Assembly: GCA_963776915.1 (NCBI GenBank)
Contig: CAVZPE010000004.1
Coordinates: forward strand, 513,812-577,811
Direction: 5' to 3'
From: an uncultured Acidobacteriota bacterium
Lineage (GTDB): Bacteria; Acidobacteriota; Thermoanaerobaculia; UBA5066
DNA length: 64,000 bases
Below are positions 14,086-57,520 of this stretch, piece after piece. The notes under the pieces are model-generated. The model saw nothing but the letters and a program-made list of their open reading frames with translations. It was not told the DNA's origin and did no database searches. The first letter of the stretch is position 1. Every line of letters begins with the position of its first letter. Position numbers and translations under genes: made by a program.

Positions 14086-14285
14086 TTTCGAATTGTACCG
14101 GAGGAAGAGATGAATATTTCTGCTTAAGAGGGGAGAACGAGGGATGCAGTCGCGGCCGGCCGGAGCAAGGGCGCGTCGGAGCGCCGCTTCGCGGGCGAAG
14201 ACCGCTTGACAGCGGCCGGACCGCGCTCAGCTTTCCGGCCTATCGGCGGCTGCATTCGCAGCCGTCGCATCTAAGAGAAAAATCC
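14086..14285. repeat. Mosaic palindromic repeat, copy A (type-2 arms), between divergent purA and hutH
   Basis: The arms are AATATTTCTGCTTAAGAGGGG (14113) and CGCATCTAAGAGAAAAATCC (14266), in inverted orientation. The interior GC-rich hairpins include CGGCGGCTGC-ATTC-GCAGCCGTCG. About 190 nt align by eye with copy D at 37170-37360. Confidence 0.75.
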
Positions 14286-14308: not shown

Positions 14309-15841
14309 ATGCTCGCTCGTGCGATCAGACCATTCATTCTCGACGGGGACTCTCTTTCACTCGAAGATCTCTCCCGCGTCGCCTCCGGCGACGCGTCGGC
14401 GGCGCTCGCGCCGCGCGCCGCCGGGCGCGTGGACGCCGCGCGGGCCGTCATCGACCGGGCCGTCGCGGAGGACCGGGTCGTCTACGGGGTGACGACGGGC
14501 TTCGGCAGGTTCGCCGACGTCGTGATCCCCCGCGAGAAGCTCGGCGAGCTCCAGCTCAACCTCGTGCGGAGCCATGCGGCGGGGACGGGCGCCGCGCTCG
14601 GCGCGCCCGCCGTCCGCGCGGTGATGCTCCTGCGCGCGAACTGCCTCGCGAAGGGGTTCTCGGGAATCCGGCGCTCGACGCTCGAGCTCCTCCTCGCGTG
14701 CCTCGAGGCGGGCGTCCACCCGATCGTGCCGGAGCAGGGCTCCGTCGGCGCGTCGGGCGATCTGGCCCCGCTCGCGCACCTGGCGCTCGCGCTCGTCGGG
14801 GAAGGCGAGGCCGAATTCCGCGGCCGGCGCATGCCGTCCGCCGACGCGCTGCGGGAGGCGGGTCTTTCGCCCGCGGTTCTCGAGGCGAAGGAAGGCCTCG
14901 CCCTCATCAACGGGACCCAGCTCACGACGGCCCTCGGCGCCCTCGCGCTCGCGCGCCTTCTCGACCTCCTCAAGGCGGCGGACCTCGTCGGCGCCCTCAC
15001 GCTCGACGTCCTCAAGGGCACGGACGCGGCCTTCGACCCGCGCATCCACGCGGCGCGGCCGCATCCGGGCCAGATCGCGTCGGCCGCGAACCTCCGCGCG
15101 CTCCTCGCGGGGTCGCCCCTGCGCGAGAGCCACCGCCACTGCGGCGTCGTGCAGGACGCCTACACGCTGCGCTGCATGCCGCAGGTGCACGGGGCCGCGC
15201 GGGACGCGGCCGCGCACGCACGCCGCGTGATCGAGATCGAGATGAACGCCGCGACGGACAACCCGATGGTCTTCGCCGAAACGGGCGAGCTCGTCTCCGG
15301 CGGCAACTTCCACGCCGCGTCCGGTCGCCCTCGTCTGCGACCTCCTGGCGGCGGCGGTGGCCGACCTCGCGTCGATCTCCGAGCGGCGCGTCGAGCGGCT
15401 CGTGAACCCGTCGCTCTCGGGCGACCTGCCGGCGTTCCTCGTGAGGGACGGCGGCCTGAACTCGGGTCTCATGATGATTCACGTGACGGCGGCGGCGCTC
15501 GTGTCGGAGGCGAAGGCGAACGCGTTCCCGGCGTCCGTGGACTCGATCCCGACGTCCGCGGGCAAGGAGGACCACGTCTCGATGGGGCCGATCGCGGCGC
15601 GCAAGCTCGCGCGGAACGTCGACCTCTACGAGACCGTCCTCGCGATCGAGCTCCTCGCGGCCGGCCAGGCGCTGGACCTGAGGCGCCCGCTCGTCTCGTC
15701 GCCGCCCGCTCGAGGACCTGCACCGGCGTCCTGCGCGCGCGCGTGCCGTTCTGGGAACGCGACCGCGAGGCGGCGCCGGCGATCGAGGGGGCGCGGGCCG
15801 CTCTCGGCGGCCTCGGAGCGCTCCTCGCGACGCTCGGCTGA
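14309..15841 (+). pseudogene. hutH: Histidine ammonia-lyase, about 3 frame changes as assembled
   Basis: ORF 14309 is HAL-like up to GGNFHA (it carries the [17 protein letters not shown] motif). ORF 15357 continues the protein ([35 protein letters not shown]). The tail [16 protein letters not shown] returns to the first frame. The changes lie near 15319, 15706 and 15728. Confidence 0.85.
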
Positions 15842-15844
15842 TCC

Positions 15845-16833
15845 TCAGCCCAGCGAGCGCGTCCGCGAGCGCGGACGGCAGCTCGTCCGGCGGCGCCGCG
15901 CTCTCGAGGAGCGCCCGCGCGGGGAGGACGGCGAGGCCGGCCGGAAGCGCGAGGGACCGGCGCCGCTTCTCGGCCACGCGGTTGAGGAGAAGCCCGGCTC
16001 CCACGCCGCGGGCGGCGAGGCGGGCCGCGACCTCGGCCGCCGTCCTGAGGGACGAGGCGTCGGCCGACGAGGCGACGAGGAAGCGGCCCTGCGAGAGGAG
16101 GCGCGCCGCCTCGGCGCTGCGCGCCCGGAAGCCGTCGTAGAGGCCGTCGAACGCGCGGAAGAAGTCCGCGAGGTCCGCGAGGAAGCCGAACCCGAGGACC
16201 TTGTCCGCCGCGCGGAGGACGGCGGCGCCGCCGCGCGAGGCGCCCGAGAGCGCCTTGCCGAGGAGGCTGTCCGAGCGGAGGAAGAAACGCAGGGCGTCGT
16301 TCTCGAGGAGCTCGACGAGACGCGCCGGCGCCGCGAGGAAGTCGAGGCCCCGCGCCGCGGGCGGCGTGTCGAGGACGATGAGGTCGACCTCCGGGTCGGC
16401 CGCGTGCTCGTGCAGCGCTTCGACTCCCATGTACTCGAGGACGCCGGGCAGCGAGTCCACGAGGCCCGTGTAGAGGCGGTTCGAGTGGATGCGCCCGAGC
16501 GCCTCCGGGCTCGCGACGCGCGCGAGGAGGCGCTCGAACGTGGCCTTCGGGTCGATCTGGAGGGCGCGGAGGCTCCCGCCGCGCGGCAGGCCCGGCACGC
16601 GCACCGCGATGGGCTCGCCGCTCCTCGCATCGGCGGCGTCGAGACCGAGCGCCTGCGCGAGGCGGCGGGCCGGGTCCACGGTCAGGACGAGCGCCCGCCG
16701 CCCGCGCCGCGCCGCGGCGAGCCCGACGGCGGCCGAGAGCGTCGTCTTCCCGACGCCGCCGGGGCCCGTCAGGACGATCAGCTTCTCTCCGTCGAGCCAG
16801 GGGCGGAGGTCGAGGTGCGGCTGGTTCGGGGGG
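15845..16833 (-). CDS. ArsA/Get3-like P-loop ATPase (downstream member of a pair); start not definable
   Basis: The sequence reads [60 protein letters not shown]. There is no ATG, GTG or TTG between repeat B and the P-loop. The frame is continuous with the upstream ATPase through repeat B. The 3' end near 15845 is uncertain because the open frame runs on antisense to hutH. Confidence 0.6.
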
Positions 16834-17088
16834 AAGAAGAGAGGAGAGGAAGAGGAAGAGGGAGATTTGCTGAGAGGGTCCCGAGCGGAGGCGCGGCCGG
16901 AGCGCTTCGGGCGGGCGGATCGCGAGGGCTCGGGCGATTGAAGATTTTCTTCGAAGGTGGTTAGAAAGGTCGAAAAGAACGGCGATGCCGCCGCGGCGAC
17001 CGGGCCTCTGTGCTTGCCGCCCGCACCGCGCACGGGACCATTCGAAGAAGTCTTCTCTTCCTCTTCCTTCTCCTCTTCTTGCTCTTCG
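16834..17088. repeat. Mosaic palindromic repeat, copy B (composite), bridging the two ArsA-like genes
   Basis: A polypurine run (16834-16860) is mirrored by a polypyrimidine run (17055-17088). The cores are GGAGATTTGCTGAGAGGG (16862), GAAGATTTTCTTCGAAGGTG (16941) and ACCATTCGAAGAAGTCTTC (17038). Two GC-rich loops lie between them. The minus-strand frame stays open ([37 protein letters not shown]). Confidence 0.8.
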
Positions 17089-17871
17089 GCCGCTTCCTCG
17101 TCGATCTCGGGCATCTCGACCATCGGAACGCCCGTCTCCCTCTTCGGCAGAATCTCCTCTCTTCCTCCCCGTCCGACCCGGTTCACGACGACGAGCGCCG
17201 TCGCGACACCCGCCGCGCCCCTGGCGCCCGCGACGAGCTCCTCGGTTTCGGTCGCGGCGAGCTCGGCAGGCTCGGCGACGGCGACGAGCGCGGTCTTCGC
17301 CGGGTCGGAGAGGAGGGCGTCGACGTCGAGAGCGAGCTTGCGGAGCGGGCCGGCGGGGACGGTCTTCAGGATCGTGCGGGGGAGCGAGAGGAGGGAGAGC
17401 GCGTGGCCCGTGGCGGGCGCGTCGAGGACGACGAGGTCGTAGCGCGGCTCCGTGCGCGGTGCCGCGCGTCCGCTTGAGGATCTCGCGGATCTTCCCGAGC
17501 AGGAGGAGGTCGGGCAGCCCCGGCGTCGCGCGCGTGAAGAAGCGGAAGACGGGGAGGGCGAGCATCCGGTCGCCGAGGAGGCGCACCGGTGCGACGGCGT
17601 GGACGAAGTCCGTCAGCAGCGCGTCGAAGTCCGTCGTGATCCCTCGGAGTCCCTCCGCGAGCGGCGCCTCGTCGTACCCACGGTCCTCGCGGCCGAAGAG
17701 AACGGCGGCGTCGCCGCGCCCGTCGGTCGAGACGAGGAGGACCGAGCGGCCCGACCGCGCGGCGAGGGCGGCGAGAGCGGCGGCGACGGTGGTCTTTCCG
17801 ACGCCGCCTTTCCCCGAGACGACGAGGACGGTTCGGGACGCGAGGCCCCGGAGGAGATCGGGCGCGCTCAC
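17089..17871 (-). pseudogene. ArsA/Get3-like P-loop ATPase (upstream member), one frame change near 17450
   Basis: The start reads MSAPDLLRGLASRTVLVVSGKGGVGKTTVAAALA..LLVSTDGRGD. After KIREILKRT the protein continues in another frame (EPRYDLVVLDAPATGHALSLLSLP..ALVVVNRV). No stop occurs before repeat B. Confidence 0.65.
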
Positions 17872-35987: not shown

Positions 35988-36168
35988 CCGAAGAGCGACG
36001 AAGGAAGAAGAAAGAAGATTCTCTTAGAAGGTGAAGAGGGGCGTGGCTGAGTCGGGCGCCCCGCGTTTCGTGTTCGGCCTGCACGGCCCCGCGCTGGATG
36101 CGGAGGAGAGGGCCTTTTTTTCGGCGCATCCGCCTCTCGGCTTCCTCCTGTTCAAGAGAAATCTTCAA
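35988..36168. repeat. Repeat copy C: polypurine arm plus forward core (35988-36042), with the partner reverse core at 36143-36168
   Basis: The left arm is CCGAAGAGCGACGAAGGAAGAAGAAAGAAGATTCTCTTAGAAGGTGAAGAGGGG and contains the nagZ GTG start. The partner TTCAAGAGAAATCTTCAATCGCCC matches copy B (reverse complement TTCGAAGAAAATCTTCAATCGCCC). Native NagZ N-terminal codons lie between the two cores. Confidence 0.65.
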
Positions 36169-37149
36169 TCGCCCTCACAAGTCGTGTCGCTGATCGAGGA
36201 GCTGCGAGGGCTCGGGGGGGCGGGAGCGGCGCCCGCCTCCGCGGGCGCCGCTCCCGCCCCGCTCCTCTTCGTGGACCAGGAGGGCGGGACCGTGGACCGC
36301 ATCGGCCCGCTCCTCGGCGTTCCGTTCGCGTCGGCCGCGGCCTGCGCGGAGGCCGGGACGGACCGCGTGCACGAGAACGCGTACCTCATGGGCCGGGCCG
36401 CGCGCCTCCTGGGATTCGACGTGGACTTCGCGCCCTGCCTCGACCTCGGGCAGCCCGGCGCGGGCGCGGTCGTCCTCGAGGGCCGGTGCTTCGGCTTCCA
36501 CGCCGAGGACGTCGTGATCGGCGGGATGGTCTTTCTCCACGGCCTCGCGCGCGCGGGCCTCGCGACCTGCGTCAAGCACTTCCCGGGTCTCGGGCGCGGC
36601 GCGGTGGACTCGCACGCGAAGCTGCCCGTCGTGGACGCGCACGACGTCGACCTCATGGTCACGGACGTCGCGCCCTTCGCGAAGCTCGGCCGCGGGGCCG
36701 ACGGGGTCATGGTCGGCCACGCGGCGTACCCCGGCTTCGAGAACGGAGCGATCGTGCCGGCGTCGCTCTCGCCGCGGATCCACGGAATCCTGCGCGGACC
36801 CGTCCGCTTCGAGGGCGTCGTCTACTCGGACGACCTCGAGATGAACGCTCTCGAGGGGACGCTGCCCGAGCGCGCCGAGCGCGCCGCGGCCGCCGGCTGC
36901 GACGTCGTGATCCTCTCGAGGACGTTCGAGGCCTACGCCGAGGCGGTCGCCCGCGTGGACGCCCTCGGCCCCGATGCCGCCCGCGCCGGGCGTCTCGACG
37001 CCCTCCGCCGCCGCGTCGCGGGCGCCCCGCGCCCGCGGTTCACCGAGGAGGCCTGGGCGAAGCTCGCGGAAGAGGCGGCAGCGTTCGGGGAGTTGATGTC
37101 GAAGCCGAGAGAGAAGAGAAGAGACGAAGACTTCGGAAGATTTTCTTAG
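36031..37149 (+). CDS. nagZ: Beta-N-acetylhexosaminidase (GH3, NagZ-like)
   Basis: This is an intact 372-aa ORF. LDAEERAFFSAHPPLGFLLFKRN, DQEGGTV and KHFPGLG are GH3 N-terminal domain motifs. The last 16 codons and the TAG stop lie in repeat D. Confidence 0.85.
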   Translation: MKRGVAESGAPRFVFGLHGPALDAEERAFFSAHPPLGFLLFKRNLQSPSQVVSLIEELRGLGGAGAAPASAGAAPAPLLFVDQEGGTVDRIGPLLGVPFASAAACAEAGTDRVHENAYLMGRAARLLGFDVDFAPCLDLGQPGAGAVVLEGRCFGFHAEDVVIGGMVFLHGLARAGLATCVKHFPGLGRGAVDSHAKLPVVDAHDVDLMVTDVAPFAKLGRGADGVMVGHAAYPGFENGAIVPASLSPRIHGILRGPVRFEGVVYSDDLEMNALEGTLPERAERAAAAGCDVVILSRTFEAYAEAVARVDALGPDAARAGRLDALRRRVAGAPRPRFTEEAWAKLAEEAAAFGELMSKPREKRRDEDFGRFS

Positions 37150-37370
37150 AAGGGAGAAGAGAGGAAAGAGGAAGATTCTTCTGCTAAGAGCGGCCGCTTC
37201 TCGCGGCCGCTCCGGAACGAATCTGTGCGCGCGCCGGGCTGTCAAGGGCGCGCTTCGCGCGCCGCGTAGCGGCCGAAGGCCCTTGACAGCGCGCCGCGCG
37301 CCCATCTTTCCTCGGCGGCGGCTGCGCATGCAGCCGCCGATAGCAGAAGAAATCTTCTCTTCTTCTCTCT
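37106..37370. repeat. Mosaic palindromic repeat, copy D (long form), between convergent nagZ and ssb
   Basis: The outer arms are GAGAGAGAAGAGAAGAGACGAAGA and TCTTCTCTTCTTCTCTCTTC. The cores are GAAGATTTTCTTAGAAGGGA (37136), GGAAGATTCTTCTGCTAAGAGC (37170) and GCAGAAGAAATCTTCT (37343). The interior hairpins are GCGGCCGC-TTCTC-GCGGCCGC, CTGTCAAGGGC...GCCCTTGACAG and CGGCGGCTGC-GCAT-GCAGCCGCCG. Confidence 0.85.
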
Positions 37371-37796
37371 TCAGAACGGGACGTCGTCGTCCGCGTCGCC
37401 GCCCTCCGGCGCCTCCGGCGCCGCAGCAGTGACGCCCGAGCTGGAGCCCGCGTCGGGCCGGCCGCCGAGCATCTTCATGTCGCGGGCCTTGATCTCCGTC
37501 GCATAGCGCTTCTGCCCGGACTCCTTGTCGTCCCAGCTGCGCGTCTGCAGCGAGCCCTCGATGTAGACGAGGCGGCCCTTCGACAGGTAGCGCTCGCAGA
37601 TGCTCGCGAGCTTGTCGAAGGCGATGACCGTGTGCCATTCGGTCTTCTCCTGCTTCTGCCCGCTGGCGCGGTCGTTCCACGTCTCGGTCGTCGCGACCCT
37701 CAGGCGCGCGATGGGGACGCCGCCGGTCGTGGCGCGCATCTCGGGGTCGGCGCCCAGGTGGCCGATCAGGATGACTTTGTTGACAGAACCAGCCAT
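37371..37796 (-). CDS. ssb: Single-stranded DNA-binding protein
   Basis: A 141-aa protein starts at the internal ATG 37796 of ORF 37371-39446. The sequence is NKVILIGHLGADPEMR..EKTEWHTVIAF with the acidic tail DADDDVPF. Confidence 0.9.
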   Translation of the reverse strand: MAGSVNKVILIGHLGADPEMRATTGGVPIARLRVATTETWNDRASGQKQEKTEWHTVIAFDKLASICERYLSKGRLVYIEGSLQTRSWDDKESGQKRYATEIKARDMKMLGGRPDAGSSSGVTAAAPEAPEGGDADDDVPF

Positions 37797-47614: not shown

Positions 47615-49600
47615 CGCGCGGGCGGCCCTTCCGGCGCGTCCTCGTCGCGAACCGCGGCGAGATCGCAGTGCGCGTCGTCCGCGGCTGCCGCGCGGCGGGC
47701 CTCGCGTCGGTGGCCGTGTACTCCGAGGCGGACCGGAACGCGCGCCACGCCGCGCTCGCCGACGACGCCGTCGAGATCGGCCCGGCGCCGGCCCGGGAGA
47801 GCTACCTCTCGATCCCGAGGCTCCTCGCGGCGGCGAAGAGCGACGGGCTGCGACGCCGTGCATCCCGGCTACGGCTTCCTGTCGGAGAACGCGGACTTCG
47901 CGCGCGCGGTCGAGGAGGCGGGGCTCGTCTGGATCGGCCCTCCGCCCGAGGCGATGGAAGCGATGGGGAGCGAAGATCGCATCGCGAGAGAACGGATGAG
48001 AGCGGCCGGCGTCCCCGTCGTGCCCGGCGCGCTCATCGCCGGGTTCGAAGAGGACGAAGAGAGAGAGAAGATTTCTTCGAATGGTAAAGAGGGCGGGGCG
48101 CGCGGTGGCGCCGCTCGGCGCGCGGCGGGGCAGCCCGCAACCTCTGGCACCTTCAAAGAAATCTCTTCTTCTTCTTCCTCTTCCTTCAAAGAAATTCTCT
48201 CTCTGGGTCTTCCCGTCGTCGTCAAGGCTTCGGCGGGAGGCGGCGGCAAGGGGATGAGGGTCGTCCGCTCGTCTGCGGAACTCTCCGAAGCCATTTCTTC
48301 CTGCCGCCGCGAGGCGGCGGCGGCGTTCGGGGACGCGACCGTTTACGTCGAGAAGTACCTCGAGAATCCGCGCCACGTGGAGGTCCAGGTCTTCGGCGAC
48401 TGGCACGGCAACGTCGTCGCGATCGGCGAGCGCGAGTGCTCGCTCCAGAGGCGTCACCAGAAGGTCGTCGAGGAGTGCCCGTCTCCGGCCGTGACGCCGG
48501 AGCTGCGCGCGCGCCTCCTGAAGGCCGCCGTCGACGCCGCGAAGGCGGTCGGCTACGTGAACGCCGGGACGGTGGAGTTCCTCCTCGCGCCCTCGGGCGA
48601 GTTCCATTTCCTCGAGATGAACACGCGCCTGCAGGTCGAGCACCCGGTCACCGAGGAGGCTTTCGGCGTGGACCTCGTCCTCCTCCAGCTCGCCGTCGCG
48701 GCGGGGGAGAAGCTGCCGCCTCTCCCGTCCGTCCCGATCCGCCATGCGATCGAGGCGCGGGTCTACGCGGAGGATCCCGAGGCGGGGTTCCTGCCTCAGG
48801 CGGGGCGCGTCCTCCTCTATCGCGAGCCCTCGGGACCCGGCGTGCGGGTGGAGTCCGGCCTGGCCGAGGGCCAGGACGTCGGCGTCCACTACGACCCGCT
48901 GCTCGCGAAGGTCGTCGCCTCCGGCGCGACGCGCGACGAGGCCCGGCGGCGCCTCGTCGGCGCTCTCGGGGAGACGGTGATCCTCGGCGTCTCGACGAAC
49001 GTCTCGTGGCTGCGCCGGCTCCTCGAGACGCCCGAGGTCGCAGCGGGGGCGATCCACACGGGCCTCCTCGAGACTCTCCCCGTGCCCGCGCCTCCGGCGC
49101 CGCCCGACGAGGCGTTCGCGGCGGCCGCGGCGGCGCTCGTCCGGAGCGGCGCCCTCCGGTCCCGGCGGTCCCGTCCTCGCCGACCCATTCGACGGCCGGT
49201 TCCGGACCGGAGGCGGCGCGTGAGGCTCCGCGAGGCGGCGACGGGGGCGTCGCGCGAGGTCCGTCCCGGCGGGATGCCGCGCGGAGCCTTCGCCGCGCGG
49301 GACGGCGAGGTCGCGTGGGTCTTCCTCGGCGGCGAGACGTGGCGCATCTCGAAGGCGCCGGCCCGGGCCGCCCGCGCGGCGGAGGAGGAGCACGCCCTCA
49401 CCGCTCCGATGCCGGGCAGGGTCTCGGCCGTGCGCGTGTCCGACGGGCAGGCCGTGGAGAAGGGCGAGGTCCTCGTCGTGCTCGAGGCCATGAAGATGGA
49501 GCACGCCGTGAGGGCCCCGCGAGCCGGAATCGTCGCGCGACTCGCCGCCGAGCCCGGGAAGATGGTGGGGCTCGGGGACGTTCTCCTCGACGTCACATGA
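47611..49600 (+). pseudogene. mccA: Methylcrotonyl-CoA carboxylase alpha subunit (biotin carboxylase + BCCP), about 3 frame changes plus an in-frame repeat insertion
   Basis: The GTG at 47611 forms a GTGA overlap. It carries FRRVLVANRGEIAVRV (ORF 47182), HPGYGFLSEN..KASAGGGGKGMRVV..EMNTRLQVEHPVTE and the biotinyl site EAMKME (ORF 47858). The frame changes lie near 47850, 49145 and 49215. Confidence 0.85.
48044..48203. repeat. Palindromic repeat, copy E, in-frame inside mccA
   Basis: The left arm is GAAGAGGACGAAGAGAGAGAGAAGATTTCTTCGAATGGT. A GC-rich loop follows. The right arm is CACCTTCAAAGAAATCTCTTCTTCTTCTTCCTCTTCC, and CCTTCAAAGAAAT is duplicated. The translation is EEDEEREKISSNGKEGGARGGAARRAAGQPATSGTFKEISSSSSSSFKEILS. 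Confidence 0.85.
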
Positions 49601-51689: not shown

Positions 51690-51862
51690 CTTTCGGATTT
51701 CGGATTTCGGATTTCTTAGAAGGGTGAGTGGGGCTGCGGCTCGACCGCCGGCGCGGCGGTCACTCGGCCGCCTCGATCCCTCTTCACCTTCTAAGCAATC
51801 CTCGGGTCCTCGCTTTCCCTCTTCCTCCCCTCATTCGAAGAAATTCTCCTTTCCGATATCCT
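51690..51862. repeat. Repeat copy F upstream of valS, preceded by a 7-nt tandem repeat (ATTTCGG x3-4)
   Basis: The tandem tract is CTTTCGG ATTTCGG ATTTCGG ATTTCTT. The forward core is TTAGAAGGGTGAGTGGGG, followed by a hairpin loop (GACCGCC-GGCGC-GGCGGTC). The reverse core is CCCTCTTCACCTTCTAAG, followed by a polypyrimidine run and CTCATTCGAAGAAATTCTC. Confidence 0.8.
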
Positions 51863-51871
51863 CGGCAGCCT

Positions 51872-54532
51872 GTGAAGGAGCTCGAGAAGACCTTCGACCC
51901 GTCCACCTTCGAGATGCGCTGGTACAAGGCGCAGGAGGAGGCCGGTGTCTTCCGTCCCGAGTCCGCCGGCCGGGACGCCGAGCCGTTCACGATCGTGATC
52001 CCGCCGCCGAACGTCACGGGGCGGCTGCACGTCGGTCACGCGCTCGGGCGGACGCTCGAGGACGTCCTGTGCCGCTGGCGCCGCATGCAGGGGCGCGCCG
52101 TCCTCTGGGTCCCCGGCGTCGACCACGCCGGCATCGCGACGCAGATGGTCGTCGAGCGCGACCTGAGGGAACGGACGGGCCAGTCGCGCCACGACCTCGG
52201 CCGCGACGCGTTCGTCGCGCTCTGCCGCGAGTGGGCGGACGCGCGCCGCGGAGACATCCTCGACCAGATCCGGCGGCTCGGCTGCTCGTGCGACTTCACC
52301 CGCGAGTACTACACGCTCGACGCGATCCGCTCGCGCGCCGTCCGCTTCGCGTTCACGACGCTCTACGAGCAGGGCCTCGCCTATCGCGCCGAGCGGCTCG
52401 TGAACTGGTGCCCGAGCTGCGCGACCGTCCTCTCCGACCTCGAGGTGAACCACGTCGAGACGTCCGGGCACCTGTGGTCGATCGCGTACCCCGTGGTGGG
52501 CGGCGGGGAGGTCGTCGTCGCGACGACGCGGCCCGAGACGATGCTCGGCGACACCGCGGTCGCCGTGCACCCCGACGACGAGCGCTACGCCGGCGCTCGT
52601 CGGCAAGCGCGTGACGCTTCCGCTGACGGGCCGGACCATCCCGGTGATCGCCGATTCCTTCGTGGAGAGGGAGTTCGGGACGGGGATCGTCAAGGTGACG
52701 CCCGCGCACGATCCGAACGACTTCGAGGCGGGCAGGCGCCACGGGCTCGACCTCGTGACCGTCATCGGGTTCGACGGCCGGATGACGCCGGCCGCCGGCG
52801 CCGCGTACGCGGGCCTCGAACGCGCCGAGGCGCGCAAGAAGGTCCTGCGGGACCTCGAGGCGCAGGGCCTGCGCCGGGGCGAGAAGAGCCACCTCGTGCC
52901 GCTCGCGCGCTGCCAGAGGTGCGACACGATCGTCGAGCCGCTCGTCTCGATCCAGTGGTTCGTGAAGATCGGCCCTCTCGCCGCCAAGGCGGTCGAGGCG
53001 ACGGAGAGGCGGGAGACGACCTTCACGCCCGAGCTCTGGAAGAAGACCTACGACGAGTGGATGCGGAACATCCGCGACTGGTGCATCTCGCGCCAGCTCT
53101 GGTGGGGACACGAGATCCCGGCCTGGTACTGCCCGGACGGCCACGTGAACGTCCCGAAGCCGGGCGCGGACGACCCCACGGCGTGCGCGACGTGCGGCTC
53201 GGCCGCCCTCGTGCGCGACCCGGACGTGTTCGACACGTGGTTCTCGTCGTGGCTCATGCCGCTCTCCGTGTTCGGCTGGCCCGCGAAGACGGCGGACTTC
53301 GAGCGCTTCTATCCGACGAGCGTTCTCGTGACGGGCTTCGACATCCTCTTCTTCTGGGTGGCCCGGATGATCATGGCCGGCACCTGGTTCGACGGGCGGG
53401 CGCCCTTCCGGGACGTGGTCCTGCACGGCCTCGTGCGCGACGAGAAGGGCCAGAAGATGTCGAAGACGAAGGGCAACGTCGTCGACCCGCTCGAGATGTG
53501 CGACGAGTTCGGGGCGGACGCCGTGCGGTTCACGCTCGCCGTCCTGTCCGGCACGGGCCGCGACCTCCCGTTCGGCAAGTCGCGCGTCGCGGGTTACCGC
53601 GGCTTCGCGACGAAGGTCTGGAACGCCGCGCGCTTCGCGCTGCCCCTGATCTCGGAAGGAGCGTGCGTGGACGCGCTCGAGTTCCGTTCCCTCTCCACGG
53701 TCGACCGCTGGATCCTCGCGCGGTTCTCGGACGCCGCGAGCCGCGTGGGCGCGTCCCTCGAGGCCTGCCGCTTCGACGAGGCGGCGCACGCGCTCTACCA
53801 GTTCTTCTGGTCCGAGTTCTGCGACGGCTACGTCGAGATGATCAAGCCGGTCCTCCGCGGCGCCGACGTGCCGGAGGCCGAGAAGGCGCGGACGCGCGGC
53901 GTCCTCAAGCGGGTGCTCCTCGACTCGCTCGCGCTCCTGCATCCGTTCATGCCGTTCGTGTCCTGCGAGATCCGCGAGGCGCTGAACGGGGACGGCCTCG
54001 GCCTCGCGACGGCGAAGTTCCCCGAGCCGGACCCCGACTGGAAGGACGACGCGGCGGTGAGGTGGTCGAGACTCCTGCGGGCGATCGTGACGCGAGTCCG
54101 GAACCTGCGCGCCGAGCACGGCCTCGCGCAGACCGAGGCGCTCGCGGTCGGCCTCGAGCTCCCGCAGGACCCCTTTCAGAGGGAAATGCGGCGTCACGTC
54201 CCGCTCCTGAGCCATCTCGCGCGGCTCAGCGCCGTGGAGATTTCTTCGAGGTGGAATTGGCCCGGAGCGCATCGCGACGTCGTCGCGGAGATCGGGATCG
54301 TCGTCGAATTGCCTTCGAAGAGAGATTTCTTCCGAAGACAGGGAGAAGCTGCGAGCGCGACGTGGAGCGCCTGCGCGCCGAGGCGGCGAAGATCAGAGCG
54401 CGGCTGGCCGACCAGAGCTTCCTCGCGCGCGCTCCCGCACCCGTTGTCGCGAAGACGAAGCAGCAGCTCGAAGAAATCTCCGAACGGATCGCGCGGCTCT
54501 CCGGCAACCTCGTGGGGACTCCGGACCGGTGA
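51872..54532 (+). pseudogene. valS: Valyl-tRNA synthetase, two or more frame changes (about 52590 and about 54340)
   Basis: The GTG at 51872 gives MKELEKTFDPSTFEMRWY. The sequence carries PPPNVTGRLHVGHAL (HIGH motif), TRPETMLGDTAVAVHPDD, then ORF 52611 (GTGIVKVTPAHDPNDF..KMSKTKGN, the KMSKS motif). The coiled-coil tail returns to the first frame. Confidence 0.9.
54237..54340. repeat. Inverted core pair G inside the valS C-terminal region (a further core lies at 54466-54480)
   Basis: GAGATTTCTTCGAGGTGGAATTGG lies at 54237. GAATTGCCTTCGAAGAGAGATTTCTTCCGAAGA lies at 54305. They flank native-looking codons (PGAHRDVVAEIGIVV). The second valS frame change lies at the right core. Confidence 0.6.
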
Positions 54533-55354: not shown

Positions 55355-56155
55355 ATGGAGGCCCCGGAGCTCGACGAGTCCACGTACGCGACGAGAGTCG
55401 AGGACGCCTTCATCGCCGAGCGCGGCACGCCCTTCCTCCTCTCGCCGAAGGACTGGACGCTCATCCGCGGCTGGCGCGAGGGCGGGATCCCGGTGGACAC
55501 CGTGGTCCGGGCCGTGCGGGAGGCGTTCGAGAAGCGGCGCGCGCGCGGCCAGGCCGGCAAGATCTCGTCCATCGCGTACTGCGCGAACGCCGTCGAGGAG
55601 CTCTGGGAGATGGAGCGCCGGGGCCTCGTGGGCAAGGCCCACGAGGCCCCCCCGGCGGGCGCGAACGCGCCCGCGAGAGGAGAGAAGTCTCTTGCTTTGC
55701 TCTCGGATCGTCTGCGCGCGATGAGCGACGCTCTCGCGACCATGGACGGCGCTGAAGATCTTCTTAGAAGGGTGAGTGGGGCCGGGGCGGCGGGCAGCGC
55801 CGGTGCGGCTCCTCGAGCGGAGGGCGCCCCAAACACCTTCGAAGAAATCCCCCTCTTCTCGTCCCTCCGAAAGTCGCTGAGCTCCGCCGCCTCGAAGATC
55901 GAGGCGCTGCCGCGCGATCTTTCATTCGAAGAATCCGAAGAGAAGCTCTCCGTGATCGAGGCGTCGCTCGTGAAGTCGGCCCTCCGCGTCCTGCCGTCCG
56001 AGCAGCAGGCTCTCGTCGAATCCCGCGTGTCCTCCGCCCTCGGCGACGTCGCCGGCGTGTCGCCCGCGGTCGTCGAGCGGATGCGCCGGGCGCTCACGCG
56101 CCGCGAGGTGCGCCTGCTCCTCGGCCTGCCGGCCCTCACGCTCCTCCATGGCTGA
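55355..56155 (+). CDS. Hypothetical protein with a conserved N-terminal domain; the C-terminal half carries repeat H
   Basis: This is an intact 266-aa ORF. The N-terminus AFIAERGTPFLLSPKDWTLIRGWREGGIPVDTVVRAV looks like a conserved uncharacterised family that I cannot name. Confidence 0.55.
   Translation: MEAPELDESTYATRVEDAFIAERGTPFLLSPKDWTLIRGWREGGIPVDTVVRAVREAFEKRRARGQAGKISSIAYCANAVEELWEMERRGLVGKAHEAPPAGANAPARGEKSLALLSDRLRAMSDALATMDGAEDLLRRVSGAGAAGSAGAAPRAEGAPNTFEEIPLFSSLRKSLSSAASKIEALPRDLSFEESEEKLSVIEASLVKSALRVLPSEQQALVESRVSSALGDVAGVSPAVVERMRRALTRREVRLLLGLPALTLLHG
55754..55860. repeat. Palindromic repeat, copy H, in-frame inside the 55355 gene (an extra core lies at 55919-55940)
   Basis: The forward core is GAAGATCTTCTTAGAAGGGTGAGTGGGG, and its last 22 nt are identical to copy F. 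A GC loop follows. The reverse core is CACCTTCGAAGAAATCCCCCTCTTCTC. The translation is EDLLRRVSGAGAAGSAGAAPRAEGAPNTFEEIPLFS. Confidence 0.8.
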
Positions 56156-57520
56156 GGTCCGCCCGGGCGACGCCCTCGAGGCTCTCGTCGAGCGCGTCGT
56201 GCCCGGGGGCGAGGGGCTCGCGCGAACGGAGGGCGTCGTGACGCTCGTGGCGGGCGGCCTGCCGGGGGACCGCGTCCGGCTGCGGGTGGAGGACGCGTCT
56301 CCCCGCCTCATCCGGGGTCGCGCGGAGGAGATTCTCGAGGCGGGCGAGGCGCGCCGCCCGGACGCCGACGTCTGCGGCCTCGCGCGGAGCGGCGCCTGCG
56401 GCGGCTGCGACTGGCCCGCTGCGCGGCCGGAGCACCATCGCGCGCTCAAGACCGAGCTCGTCCTCGACGCGCTGCGGCGGCTCGGCGGCCTCACCGCGGC
56501 CGACCTGCCCGAGCCGCGCTGGCTGGGTTCCCCGCCGAACTACCGCCTCCGCAACCGGCTGCACCTCGACCGCGAGGGGCGCCTCGGCTTCTTCGCGCCC
56601 CGCTCGAAGGCGGTCGCGGACCTCGAGGGCTGCCAGATCGTGTCGAAGCCCTTCCTGGAGCGGCTCCCGGCGCTCCGGGACCACCTTCGCTCGATGGGGC
56701 CGATGGAAGGGGAGCTCTTGACCCTGGAGTCGCGCGACGGGAAGACCCTGCTCGGCGAGTTGCGGCTCTCGGCGGGTGACGGTCTGCAAATTTCTTCGAA
56801 GGTGAAAGAGAGAGGGAGAGGGCCGTTCGACGGGTTTCGCGTCGTCGATGCGGGTGGGCGGCTGCTCGCCTCGGACGGTCCCTCGTCGCTTTCCATCGAG
56901 GCAGGCGGCGCCTCGTTCGACGTGCCGGTGTCTTCCTTCTTTCAAGGAAATCTCTTTCTCCTCGATTCGTTCCTCGAGGAGATCCGGACGGCGCTTCGCG
57001 CCGGAAGAGAAGAGAAGATTTTCCTAGAAGGGAAGAGGGGGGAGGCGCGCGCTTGCGCGCCGTGGATCTCTATGCGGGCGTCGGGTTCATGACGCGCCCT
57101 CTCCTGGAGCTCGCGGCCGAGATGGGAGGCGGCGAGGTGACGGCCGTCGAGATCGACCCGGCGTCGTCCCATTCACTTTCAAAGAATCTTCAGGCCTGGC
57201 AGAAGGAGGGCCTGCCCCTCGCGCGCTCGATCCGAGCCTCCGCTGAATCCTTCTTCCACTCGAAGAAATCCGAATCTTCGGTCTCTCTTCTCCTCGCGGA
57301 CCCTCCGCGCGCCGGCCTGTCGCCCGAGGTGCGGAAGGGGCTCCTGCGGCTCGCGCCGCCGCGCGTCCTGATGGTGTCCTGCGACCCGCCGACGCTCGCC
57401 CGCGACCTCGCGGCGCTGAAGGAGCGCTACGCGGTGACGCGCCTGACGCTCCTCGACCTCTTCCCGCAGACCCACCACGTCGAGACGGTGGCCTTGCTCG
57501 CCGCGCGTCCGATCGGATAG
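56148..57520 (+). pseudogene. 23S rRNA (uracil-5-)-methyltransferase RlmD/RumA-like (TRAM, Fe-S Cys cluster, SAM MTase), one frame change near 57040
   Basis: ORF 56148 carries CGLARSGACGGCDW and SSFFQGN. ORF 57053 carries VDLYAGVGFM, LLADPPRAGL, MVSCDPPTLARDL and DLFPQTHHVETV. The join falls in repeat I-3 at a G6 run. Confidence 0.8.
56788..57293. repeat. Cluster I: five core copies inside the rlmD-like gene
   Basis: The five cores are AAATTTCTTCGAAGGTGAAAGAGAGAGGGAGAGGG (56788), CTTCTTTCAAGGAAATCTC (56936), GAAGAGAAGAGAAGATTTTCCTAGAAGGGAAGAGGGGGG plus the GGCGCGC-GCTT-GCGCGCC hairpin (57004-57060), CTTTCAAAGAATCTTCAG (57175) and CCACTCGAAGAAATCCGAATCTTCGGTCTCTCTTCTCC (57256). Confidence 0.7.

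What the first reader, a model, noticed from the sequence alone, without database searches (positions are those of the whole stretch)
16834..17088. Composite repeat B joins two ArsA/Get3-like ATPase genes into one continuous open frame
The upstream ATPase ends ...ALVVVNRVGRGGREEILPKRETGVPMVEMPEIDEEAAEEQ with no stop codon. The frame stays open through about 255 nt of AT-rich repeat ([54 protein letters not shown]...SSSSSPLFF). It then runs into the P-loop of the second ATPase ([14 protein letters not shown]). There is no ATG, GTG or TTG start between the repeat and the P-loop. The element is read in the same relative orientation and frame as copy E in mccA (EK[IT]SSNG...TF[KE]E[IN]). This suggests selection for the open frame. 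Either the element created a fused tandem ArsA-like protein, or it replaced the natural stop/start junction.
Basis: partly seen in the sequence, partly recalled or inferred. Interest (0 to 1): 0.7.

Follow-up and report, generated by a model that had tools for sequence, protein, structure and literature searches.

The report
In-frame repeat inside a fused ATPase linker
The two ArsA/Get3-like ATPase halves were already one fused gene before the repeat arrived; the repeat is an old palindromic element sitting in frame in the flexible linker between the halves, much like the in-frame palindromic elements known from Rickettsia.

Summary
On the minus strand one frame runs from the BagA-like half, through the repeat (16834-17088), into the P-loop of the BagB-like half. 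There is no stop and no in-frame start after the repeat.

Three outgroup loci (L001, L002, L004) carry the same fused BagA-BagB gene with an ordinary 40-60 aa linker and no repeat. At least 119 homologues are fused.

The repeat is older and larger than described. It consists of nested inverted arms spanning 16830-17170. Its peptide (EEKISSNG...[16 protein letters not shown]...RDPLSKS...SFF) is shared by proteins 60-88% identical, and these form one clade on a tree built from the ATPase domains alone. The same family sits in frame in mccA and in an ABC-F ATPase, and also in intergenic DNA.

An open frame at this one locus is not remarkable, because 54% of dinucleotide shuffles are open. The comparative data do show that the frame is maintained.

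The arms keep rare AT-ending codons across all orthologues, and this is unexplained. The 5' arm and loop were lost repeatedly. The 3' arm lies in a confidently predicted helix.

The window assembly carries several probable 1-nt indels, including one in the BagA-like half near 17450.

The parts
17184..17871 (-). BagA-like (Rv3679-like) ArsA/Get3-fold ATPase half. The first P-loop is at 17788-17814. A 1-nt frameshift lies near 17450: an extra G in ...GCG CAC G|GAG CCG CGC TAC GAC.
   Evidence: NCBIfam BagA E 3.9e-33 and Pfam ArsA_ATPase E 2.3e-23. PDB 6BS3_A E 9e-20 for orthologue P0001. The frame change is seen, where orthologues read KRTRGTAKEPRYDLVV continuously.
17135..17170 (-). Outer 5' arm M1: a polypurine tract plus GAGATTCTGCCGAAGAGGG, encoding GGREEILPKRE. 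It lies in codons homologous to the ancestral GRSGRAETLPRE.
   Evidence: Inverted repeat I21 pairs 16830-16865 with 17135-17170, 36 nt, 81% complementary.
17089..17134 (-). Linker segment TGVPMVEMPEIDEEAAEE. The (I/V)P(L/M)VE(I/M)PEI part is shared with repeat-free outgroups.
17056..17087 (-). Polypurine tract (EEQEEEKEEEE) preceding the inner 5' arm. Its length varies between orthologues.
17037..17055 (-). Inner 5' arm M2, GAAGACTTCTTCGAATGGT, encoding EKTSSNG.
   Evidence: Family arm with 2 mismatches to the consensus. It is conserved as AAGATTTCTTCGA(A/G)TGGTCCC in orthologues.
16962..17036 (-). GC-rich variable loop (PVRGAGGKHRGPVAAAA) followed by SPFFSTFL. The 5' arm plus loop are absent in L007, L010, L011 and L014.
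   Evidence: Loop DNA identity to orthologues is 0.68-0.82, against 0.84-0.90 for the arms.
16940..16961 (-). Inner 3' arm M3, ACCACCTTCGAAGAAAATCTTC, encoding TTFEENL. The core TTCGAAGA(A/G)AA is found in all 12 orthologous loci.
   Evidence: It lies in predicted helix 289-315 of P0001, with pLDDT about 85.
16879..16939 (-). Second GC-rich segment, encoding [20 protein letters not shown].
   Evidence: The corresponding region 319-346 of P0001 has pLDDT below 50.
16830..16878 (-). Outer 3' arm M4, CCCTCTCAGCAAATCTCC, plus a polypyrimidine tail ([17 protein letters not shown]). It is complementary to M1.
   Evidence: (I21). The outer helix is paired in 92.7% of cells, and 7 of 15 pairs show changes on both sides.
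15846..16829 (-). BagB-like (Rv3680-like) ATPase half. The second P-loop is at 16740-16766. The expected stop after ...ALADALAG is out of frame, so the ORF runs on to 15012, antisense to hutH.
   Evidence: NCBIfam BagB E 2.1e-61. PDB 6BS3_B E 3.6e-44 for P0001..
48044..48205 (+). Sister copy of the same repeat family, in frame in the ATP-grasp loop of the mccA-like biotin carboxylase (FEEDEEREKISSNGKEGGARGGAARRAAGQPATSGTFKEISSSSSSSFKEILSL).
   Evidence: (I1). Orthologues at the same site show a graded series from no insert to the full element.

Best explanation
The region 16830-17170 is an old, composite palindromic repeat. It has two nested pairs of inverted arms with GC-rich loops between them, flanked by a polypurine tract on one side and a polypyrimidine tract on the other. 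It lies in frame inside the interdomain linker of a natively fused BagA-BagB (ArsA/Get3-fold) ATPase.

Shown:
- The fusion exists without the repeat in outgroups.
- The repeat-derived linker defines one clade.
- The repeat is read through as protein-coding sequence in every homologue that could be parsed.
- Copies of the same family sit in frame in loops or linkers of other enzymes, and also in intergenic DNA.

Inferred:
- A mobile or copy-prone palindromic element inserted into the pre-existing linker in an ancestor of the clade.
- It was tolerated for two reasons. The linker is flexible, and the element is nearly free of stop codons by composition. Purine-only and pyrimidine-only tracts cannot encode stops, and GC-rich loops rarely do.
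- Selection on the downstream BagB-like half has since kept length changes in multiples of three.
- The 5' arm and loop are dispensable and were deleted repeatedly. The 3' arm (TFEEN) has become part of a conserved helix, FFxxFLxTFEEN.

The element did not create the fusion and did not replace a stop/start junction.
For: Fusion without the repeat:
- L001, L002 and L004 each have both P-loops in one ORF, with a 40-60 aa linker and no arm motif.

Extent of the fusion:
- 119 of the 120 best homologues carry both halves in one protein of about 620-690 aa, at 99% query cover. The 120th was not parsed by the pattern used.

Age of the repeat:
- The same linker peptide occurs in proteins 60-88% identical to the window.
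- All proteins carrying the 3' arm peptide form one clade on an NJ tree of 516 ATPase-domain columns, with the three repeat-free proteins outside it.

Family membership:
- The arm occurs 9 times in the window against 0.13 expected.
- The mccA site shows the series no insert, solo arm, arm-arm, full element.
- Metagenome contigs carry full elements both in intergenic DNA and in frame in an ABC-F ATPase.

Tolerance:
- In the AF2 model of P0001, pLDDT is below 50 for 235-245, 259-269, 274-295 and 319-346, while helix 289-315 reaches about 85.
- The whole model matches fused ArsA structures with TM 0.55-0.64, and each half matches 6BS3 chains A and B.

Loss of the 5' arm and loop:
- L009 and L010 are 94% identical yet differ by this indel. 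The deletion boundaries differ in L007, L010 and L011.
Against: - No target-site duplication, empty-site DNA pair or partner transposase was found, so mobility is inferred rather than shown.
- The outer 5' arm M1 occupies codons homologous to ancestral residues and so cannot itself be inserted DNA.
- The FFxAF part of the helix is also present in the repeat-free outgroups. The boundary between ancestral linker and element-derived sequence is therefore uncertain.
- The arms keep rare AT-ending codons across all orthologues. A passively decaying insertion would not be expected to do this.
- The tree is a midpoint-rooted NJ tree without support values.
- No protein-level evidence shows that the linker is translated.
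Confidence: 0.8

Rival explanations
1. One reading: insertion of the repeat between two separate ArsA-like genes removed the stop and start and so created the fused ORF.
For: In Mycobacterium tuberculosis the homologues are two separate proteins: PDB 6BS3 chains A (340 aa) and B (394 aa). In the window the repeat fills most of the space between the two halves.
Against: Repeat-free relatives are already fused and lie outside the repeat-bearing clade. Linker residues on both sides of the repeat (VPxVExPEI, FFxAF, LDLxxxL) are shared with these relatives. A linker therefore existed before the repeat.
Confidence: 0.03
2. The nested inverted repeats are kept because they act at the nucleic-acid level. 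They could form an mRNA or DNA hairpin, or a cluster of rare codons, at the boundary between the two ATPase halves. Either could pause ribosomes for co-translational folding or tune expression. On this view the similarity to other copies reflects a shared functional module rather than selfish spread.
For: - AT-ending codons are shared by 75% or more of 9 genomes in 18 of 112 linker columns, against 0 of 415 domain columns.
- In the arm, Asn is AAT 8/8 and Gln is CAA 7/7. In the domains they are AAC 28/28 and CAG 22/22.
- Sense-strand RNA folds at -172 kcal/mol, z = -3.7.
- The outer polypurine:polypyrimidine helix is kept in all 12 sequences, with 7 of 15 pairs changed on both sides. Covariation reaches the observed value in 2 of 500 shuffles.
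- Arm M1 arose by substitutions within ancestral codons.
Against: - The inner helix shows no compensatory change.
- Low-complexity purine and pyrimidine tracts pair in many registers; versions slid by a few columns still pair at 60-70%.
- The 5' arm and loop were deleted repeatedly without loss of the gene.
- Copies also occur in unrelated genes and in intergenic DNA.
- There is no Rfam match.
- The shuffle control is known to give false positives with related sequences.
Confidence: 0.15
3. In this particular genome the gene is broken. The frameshift near 17450 and the out-of-frame stop would make it a pseudogene, so no fused protein is made here and the open frame across the repeat is a relic.
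For: The BagA-like half changes frame near 17450, and the ORF lacks its normal stop.
Against: Several other genes in the window also show frame changes: hutH has two compensating shifts, and the mccA N-terminus, a RumA-like gene and the valS C-terminus are affected. Where I read the DNA, the shifts sit in short G or C runs: bagA near 17450, the bagAB stop region, and a G6 run in the RumA-like gene. This pattern points to consensus indel errors in the assembly rather than decay of one gene. Codon usage in both halves is normal, with GC3 0.84-0.98. Orthologues are intact.
Confidence: 0.1

Closest known systems
Rickettsia palindromic elements (RPEs)
   Same: Both are repeated palindromic elements of about 100-150 bp. 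Both are found many times in frame inside unrelated protein-coding genes, each contributing a conserved extra peptide. Insertions are shared between related species and are compatible with the host protein's fold (review PMC10969869). In this clade the elements sit in frame in bagAB, mccA, an ABC-F ATPase and ORF 55355-56155, at linkers or loops. Copies are shared across a whole clade.
   Different: - The host is a different phylum: free-living Acidobacteriota at about 70% GC (Thermoanaerobaculia-like), against AT-rich obligate intracellular Rickettsia.
- The sequence differs: arms GAAGATTTCTTCGAAGG with polypurine and polypyrimidine flanks.
- Homology to RPE families was not tested.
- Here the arms keep rare codons over deep divergence, and the 3' arm is retained within a helix while the rest is lost repeatedly.
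E. coli ArsA (A1-linker-A2 pseudodimer)
   Same: Both have two homologous ArsA/Get3-fold nucleotide-binding halves in one polypeptide, joined by a flexible linker. The AF2 model of orthologue P0001 matches 1II0, 1II9 and 9NBW over both halves (TM 0.55-0.64, E 1e-17 to 3e-19).
   Different: The halves here are BagA-like and BagB-like, not A1 and A2. The ArsA equivalog model scores 45 and 36 bits against a cut-off of 650. The neighbours are an epimerase, an acyltransferase, a phasin, hutH and purA, with no ars genes. The linker is about 120 aa and is largely repeat-derived.
Mycobacterium tuberculosis BagA/BagB (Rv3679/Rv3680, PDB 6BS3)
   Same: These are the best sequence and family matches for the two halves, in the same order, BagA then BagB.
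   Different: In M. tuberculosis they are two separate proteins forming a heterodimer. Here they are one polypeptide. Scores are far below the NCBIfam equivalog cut-offs (115 against 400, and 208 against 521), so the two halves are distant homologues, not orthologues by that standard.
Bacterial MITEs with intragenic in-frame copies (for example ERIC, Coxiella QMITE1, Anabaena MITEs)
   Same: Both are small, have terminal inverted repeats and occur in many copies. Occasional in-frame ORF fusions are reported (PMC10969869).
   Different: For this family no target-site duplication or partner insertion sequence was identified. In-frame, long-conserved copies appear to be common in this family rather than occasional.

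Membership tests
BagA/BagB (Rv3679/Rv3680) Get3-like ATPase pair | The N-terminal unit is homologous to BagA and the C-terminal unit to BagB, in that order. | tested here: met
   NCBIfam BagA E 3.9e-33 and BagB E 2.1e-61. P0001 residues 15-231 match 6BS3_A and residues 365-669 match 6BS3_B.
BagA/BagB (Rv3679/Rv3680) Get3-like ATPase pair | Scores reach the curated equivalog cut-offs. | tested here: not met
   115.3 bits against 400 for BagA, and 208.1 against 521 for BagB.
BagA/BagB (Rv3679/Rv3680) Get3-like ATPase pair | Two separate polypeptides that form a heterodimer. | tested here: not met
   A single ORF is found in the window and in 119 of 120 homologues. The 120th was not parsed.
ArsA arsenite-pump ATPase | Two ArsA-fold halves in one chain joined by a linker. 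| tested here: met
   Foldseek matches to 9NBW, 1II0 and 1II9 cover both halves, with TM 0.55-0.64.
ArsA arsenite-pump ATPase | ArsA equivalog score and an ars operon context. | tested here: not met
   TIGR04291 scores 45 and 35.6 bits against a cut-off of 650. The neighbours are an epimerase, an acyltransferase, a phasin, hutH and purA.
RPE-like in-frame palindromic elements (kind, not sequence family) | A repeated element with inverted arms, present in many copies in the genome. | tested here: met
   and the sequence listing. Further copies occur in relatives and in metagenome contigs.
RPE-like in-frame palindromic elements (kind, not sequence family) | Copies lie inside ORFs, in frame and free of stops, and add a conserved peptide. 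| tested here: met
   bagAB, mccA and ORF 55355-56155. An ABC-F ATPase in L017, L020 and L022. The peptide EKISSNG...TF[EK]E[IN] is conserved.
RPE-like in-frame palindromic elements (kind, not sequence family) | Insertions sit at positions compatible with the host fold, such as a surface loop or linker. | tested here: met
   For bagAB, pLDDT is below 50 over most of the linker in the AF2 model. For mccA, the site replaces the loop between GVPVVPG and GxPxVVKA; this rests on sequence position only.
RPE-like in-frame palindromic elements (kind, not sequence family) | Sequence homology to one of the described Rickettsia RPE families. | not tested
Rfam gave no match to the region.
MITE | Terminal inverted repeats. 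| tested here: met
   The inner arms are 17037-17055 and 16940-16961. The outer arms are 17135-17170 and 16830-16878.
MITE | Target-site duplication flanking the element. | tested here: inconclusive
   No clear direct repeat was seen at the ends of the copies read. Filled and empty sites are too diverged for a base-level comparison.
MITE | A partner autonomous insertion sequence with the same ends. | not tested
   No transposase search was done on the window or the loci.
REP/BIME | Palindromes of 20-40 bp tagged with GTAG or CGTC at one end (PMC3733652 abstract). | tested here: not met
   The arms read GAAGATTTCTTCGAAGG or GAGATTCTGCYNAAGAGGG and carry no GTAG or CGTC head.

The most novel reading that the evidence does not exclude
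Thermoanaerobaculia-like Acidobacteriota may carry an undescribed, RPE-like family of palindromic elements that has colonised loops and linkers of housekeeping enzymes (bagAB, mccA, an ABC-F ATPase, valS) and has then been domesticated.

Two observations point that way. The arms are held at the nucleotide level, rare codons included, over deep divergence. In at least two enzymes the 3' arm peptide TF[EK]E[IN]L is kept within or near a helix while the rest of the element is lost repeatedly.

On this reading the nested arms in bagAB work as an mRNA structure or rare-codon pause at the boundary between the two ATPase halves.
Probability: 0.2. Interest if true: 0.6.

Novelty: new member of a known kind. 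Interest (0 to 1): 0.35.

Why it matters
The claim as first stated, a repeat welding two genes into one, would have been a clear case of mobile DNA creating a new protein architecture. That did not happen here, because the fusion is older than the repeat.

What remains is still useful. It is a clear case, outside Rickettsia, of a palindromic repeat family living in frame inside conserved enzymes of a high-GC, free-living lineage. It comes with a natural series of full, partial and solo-arm states across more than 100 public assemblies.

The conserved rare codons in the arms give a concrete test of whether such insertions are passengers or have acquired a role. That role could lie in the RNA, in translation kinetics, or in the protein as a helix.

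There is also a practical point. These elements, together with the many 1-nt indels in this assembly, will mislead gene callers and anyone reading domain architecture from it.

Tried and rejected
- **Rfam.** A search of the whole window at gathering threshold found only two tRNAs. A search of 16600-17400 at E up to 5 found only noise.
- **Genome scan.** Closer relatives had to be reached by protein search and exact look-up.
- **The window's own record.** P0121 (mccA) is 100% identical to the window and comes from a 639,444-bp contig. The exact look-up found no gene on record, so I could not name the record or read the bagAB region in it.
- **Coding coincidences among arm hits.** The hit at 36154-36174 lies in a coding sequence that reads LFKRNLQSP and resembles NagZ-type hexosaminidases from memory. 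The hit at 56939-56953 encodes FFQGN, which resembles the FFQxN motif of RumA-type methyltransferases, also from memory. Neither gene was checked against a family library.
- **TTCGAA count.** The window holds 17 copies against 12.5 expected under a first-order model, which is not informative.
- **Splicing, bypass or intein-like removal.** I considered these and set them aside. All homologues that could be parsed keep the frame, avoid stops and conserve the peptide, which would not be required if the segment were skipped. There is no direct test.
- **REP/BIME.** Rejected because the arms carry no GTAG or CGTC tag.

Full report
**The sequence itself.** The genes lie on the minus strand of a 72% GC window. 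One minus-strand frame runs from about 17462 down through the repeat and into [14 protein letters not shown]. It has no stop, and no in-frame ATG, GTG or TTG lies between the repeat and the P-loop.

The upstream unit matches NCBIfam BagA (E 3.9e-33) and the downstream unit matches BagB (E 2.1e-61). Both hit Pfam ArsA_ATPase, and the 82-aa repeat peptide hits nothing. Orthologue P0001 matches PDB 6BS3 chain A with its N-terminal half and chain B with its C-terminal half.

GC falls to about 0.62 across the repeat.

**Caveats on the observation.**
- The BagA-like half changes frame near 17450. The sense strand reads ...GCG CAC G GAG CCG CGC TAC GAC where orthologues read continuously.
- The normal stop after ...ALADALA is out of frame, so the ORF runs on to 15012.
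- hutH has two compensating shifts. The mccA N-terminus, a RumA-like gene and the valS C-terminus also change frame. This looks like an assembly with frequent 1-nt indels.
- Two of the three minus-strand frames are open over the repeat. In addition, 54% of dinucleotide shuffles of the 255 nt are open in the required frame, and 33% for the 341-nt extended element. The open frame at this locus alone is therefore not evidence of selection.

**The repeat is real and larger than described.** The arm GAAGATTTCTTCGAAGG occurs 9 times at 3 or fewer mismatches, against 0.13 expected. A looser scan gives 34 hits against 1-6 in shuffles. Copies lie at about 36.0, 37.1-37.4, 46.15, 48.04-48.2, 51.7-51.86, 54.23-54.35, 55.75-55.87, 56.79 and 57.0-57.3 kb.

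Copy B is composite:
- An inner pair of arms: M2 at 17037-17055 and M3 at 16940-16961.
- An outer pair: M1 at 17135-17170 and M4 plus a polypyrimidine tail at 16830-16878. This outer pair is inverted repeat I21, 36 nt and 81% complementary.

Purine-only and pyrimidine-only tracts cannot contain stop codons, and GC-rich loops seldom do. That explains why such elements are easy to carry in frame.

**The decisive comparison.** A genome scan with the BagB-like half returned four Acidobacteriota MAG loci at 62-66% identity. In L001, L002 and L004 both P-loops lie in one ORF. The linker is ordinary, for example ...VPELDVAPPGGESPFAADEAFFAAFRPALEGSPPPRRRGPAAAPPGPGNLDLERVL, about 74 aa shorter than in the window. 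These loci contain no arm motif.

A protein search with the window ORF gave more than 1000 hits. The best 120 are 536-733 aa long, most covering 99% of the query. Of these, 119 carry both halves in one protein; one was not parsed by the pattern I used. The fusion therefore does not depend on the repeat.

**The repeat-derived linker is old.** The closest proteins, P0001-P0018 at 80-87% identity, carry the same peptide...EEKISS[NS]GP...[16 protein letters not shown]...ARDPLS.S..LSFF... Proteins down to 60% identity keep FFxxF[LV]x[TS]F[EK]E.

On an NJ tree of 516 ATPase-domain columns, with the linker excluded, all proteins carrying this motif form one clade. L001, L002 and L004 fall outside it (midpoint root, no support values). 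Gene order is conserved throughout: epimerase, a small phasin-like gene, bagAB, hutH, purA.

The simplest history has three steps: first the fusion, then acquisition of the repeat in the linker of one lineage, then in-frame decay.

**Decay pattern.** The 5' inner arm plus loop are missing in P0019-P0022, P0025, P0090, P0093, P0096-P0099 and others, with different boundaries. L009 and L010 are 94% identical yet differ by this indel. The 3' arm peptide is always kept.

The mccA site shows the same behaviour in 120 orthologues:
- No insert: GTHDLSPEGLAAVG, at 62-67% identity.
- Solo 3' arm: ALITTSGTFKEILSLG.
- Arm against arm with no loop: EEKISFKEISS, EKISLNGTFKEIL.
- Full element.

A metagenome scan for canonical arm pairs found seven contigs of 64-73% GC. 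Three carry the element in frame before the C-terminal coiled coil of an ABC-F ATPase, and the others carry it in intergenic DNA.

**Structure.** An AF2 model of P0001 (62-sequence alignment, mean pLDDT 73.7) has pLDDT below 50 over 235-245, 259-269, 274-295 and 319-346. A helix at 289-315 reaches about 85 over [12 protein letters not shown]. The model matches full-length ArsA pseudodimers (TM 0.55-0.64), and each half matches 6BS3 chains A and B.

Most of the element-encoded sequence is thus predicted to be disordered linker. The 3' arm is part of a conserved helix whose FFxAF portion is already present in the repeat-free outgroups.

**An unexplained layer.** The arms keep rare AT-ending codons.
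- Across nine orthologues, 18 of 112 linker columns have AT-ending codons in 75% or more of the sequences, against 0 of 415 domain columns.
- In the M3 arm, Asn is AAT 8/8 and Gln is CAA 7/7. In the domains they are AAC 28/28 and CAG 22/22. GAA makes up 43% of Glu codons in the linker against 12% in the domains.
- The core TTCGAAGA(A/G)AA is present in all 12 loci, including L014 and L015 at 60-64% identity.
- Among close relatives the arms are about as conserved at the DNA level as the ATPase domains (0.84-0.90). The loops are less conserved (0.68-0.82).

Sense-strand RNA folds with z = -3.7. RNAalifold keeps the outer polypurine:polypyrimidine helix in all 12 sequences. That helix is paired in 92.7% of cells, with 7 of 15 pairs changed on both sides. 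The inner helix shows no compensatory change, and slid controls still pair at 60-70% because the tracts are low in complexity.

Arm M1 occupies codons that align without gaps to the GRSGRAETLPRE and GRGGRTEVLPRL of the outgroups. It was therefore made by substitutions, or it was a pre-existing pseudo-arm.

A hairpin, a rare-codon pause, gene conversion among copies, and recognition by a transposase all remain possible. I rate a nucleic-acid-level function at about 0.15.

**Comparison with known systems.** The phenomenon works like the Rickettsia palindromic elements, which sit in frame in many unrelated genes and add a conserved peptide (PMC10969869). The host lineage and the sequence are different, and homology to RPE families was not tested.

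The host protein's architecture is that of ArsA, two halves joined by a linker, but its halves are BagA-like and BagB-like and there is no ars context.

Searches for in-frame palindromic elements, and for MITEs together with Acidobacteria, turned up no description of this family. The library is incomplete, so this is weak evidence of novelty.

**Verdict.** What is there is an old, in-frame, RPE-like composite palindromic element in the linker of a natively fused BagA-BagB ATPase. I classify it as a new member of a known kind. The conserved rare-codon arms remain an open question.

Noticed in passing
window 17436-17475; 15840-15866; 15300-15360 and about 15700 (hutH); about 47615-47850 (mccA N-terminus); about 57030-57060; about 54230-54350: There are many probable 1-nt indels. 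bagA changes frame near 17450, and the bagAB stop is out of frame. hutH has two compensating shifts. The mccA N-terminus is out of frame. A RumA-like gene shifts at a G6 run, and the valS body and its C-terminal coiled coil are in different frames. This looks like an unpolished consensus rather than gene decay.
   Followed up: partly
window 48044-48205 (+): The same repeat family lies in frame in the ATP-grasp loop of the mccA-like biotin carboxylase. Across 120 orthologues the site shows every state, from no insert through solo 3' arm and arm-arm to the full element. P0121 is 100% identical to the window and comes from a public 639,444-bp contig.
   Followed up: yes
window 55752-55865 (+), in ORF 55355-56155: A full element (GAAGATCTTCTTAGAAGG...CCTTCGAAGAAATCC) lies in frame in a 266-aa conserved hypothetical protein. 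It is read as AEDLLRRVSGAGAAG...NTFEEIPLFSSL. The 5' arm is in a different frame from copy B, and the 3' arm is in the same frame.
   Followed up: partly
window 51695-51860; 35990-36040; 37105-37375; 14090-14140: Intergenic copies or solo arms occur in several places. One lies upstream of valS, with (GGATTTC)3 next to the arm. One lies upstream of a gene that reads like a NagZ-type hexosaminidase (not checked against a family library). There is a composite at 37.1-37.4 kb, and a second-type arm (ATTTCTGCTTAAGAGGGG) between purA and hutH. Relatives L007, L010 and L016 also have an arm between hutH and purA.
   Followed up: partly
window 37202-37249 / 37279-37326: A 48-nt inverted repeat (75% complementary, 29 nt apart) lies inside the 37-kb repeat cluster. 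Each arm carries TTGACA or TGTCAA. Its function is unknown.
   Followed up: no
L017 7412-7501, L020 6985-7074, L022 2967-3056 (metagenome contigs): A canonical element of the family lies in frame in an ABC-F-type ATPase, just before its C-terminal coiled coil (...RRKKGREISSKVNTASATGEAAAVRVAQAPLNPSKKSSSSSSERT...). Here the 3' arm is read in a different frame, as PSKKSSS.
   Followed up: partly
P0023 (733 aa) and window 15012-15846: An independent assembly also lacks the usual stop after ...ALADALA. Its ORF runs on, antisense to hutH, as in the window. Either both carry the same kind of indel error or some lineages really have a C-terminal extension.
   Followed up: no
L009 2640-3000, L010 2730-3000, L007 4780-5000: Many orthologues were gene-called from an internal Met (MSTDGRGD... 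or MRLIGDR...). The upstream frame is open through the first P-loop but has no nearby ATG or GTG. The true start may be a rarer codon, and the database proteins are N-terminally truncated.
   Followed up: partly
window 47615-49600: In the window the mccA-like ORF continues into a biotinyl (BCCP-like) domain; P0121 is 580 aa and carries PF00364. Most orthologues are 480-537 aa and lack that domain. This may be a real fusion or another frame artefact.
   Followed up: no
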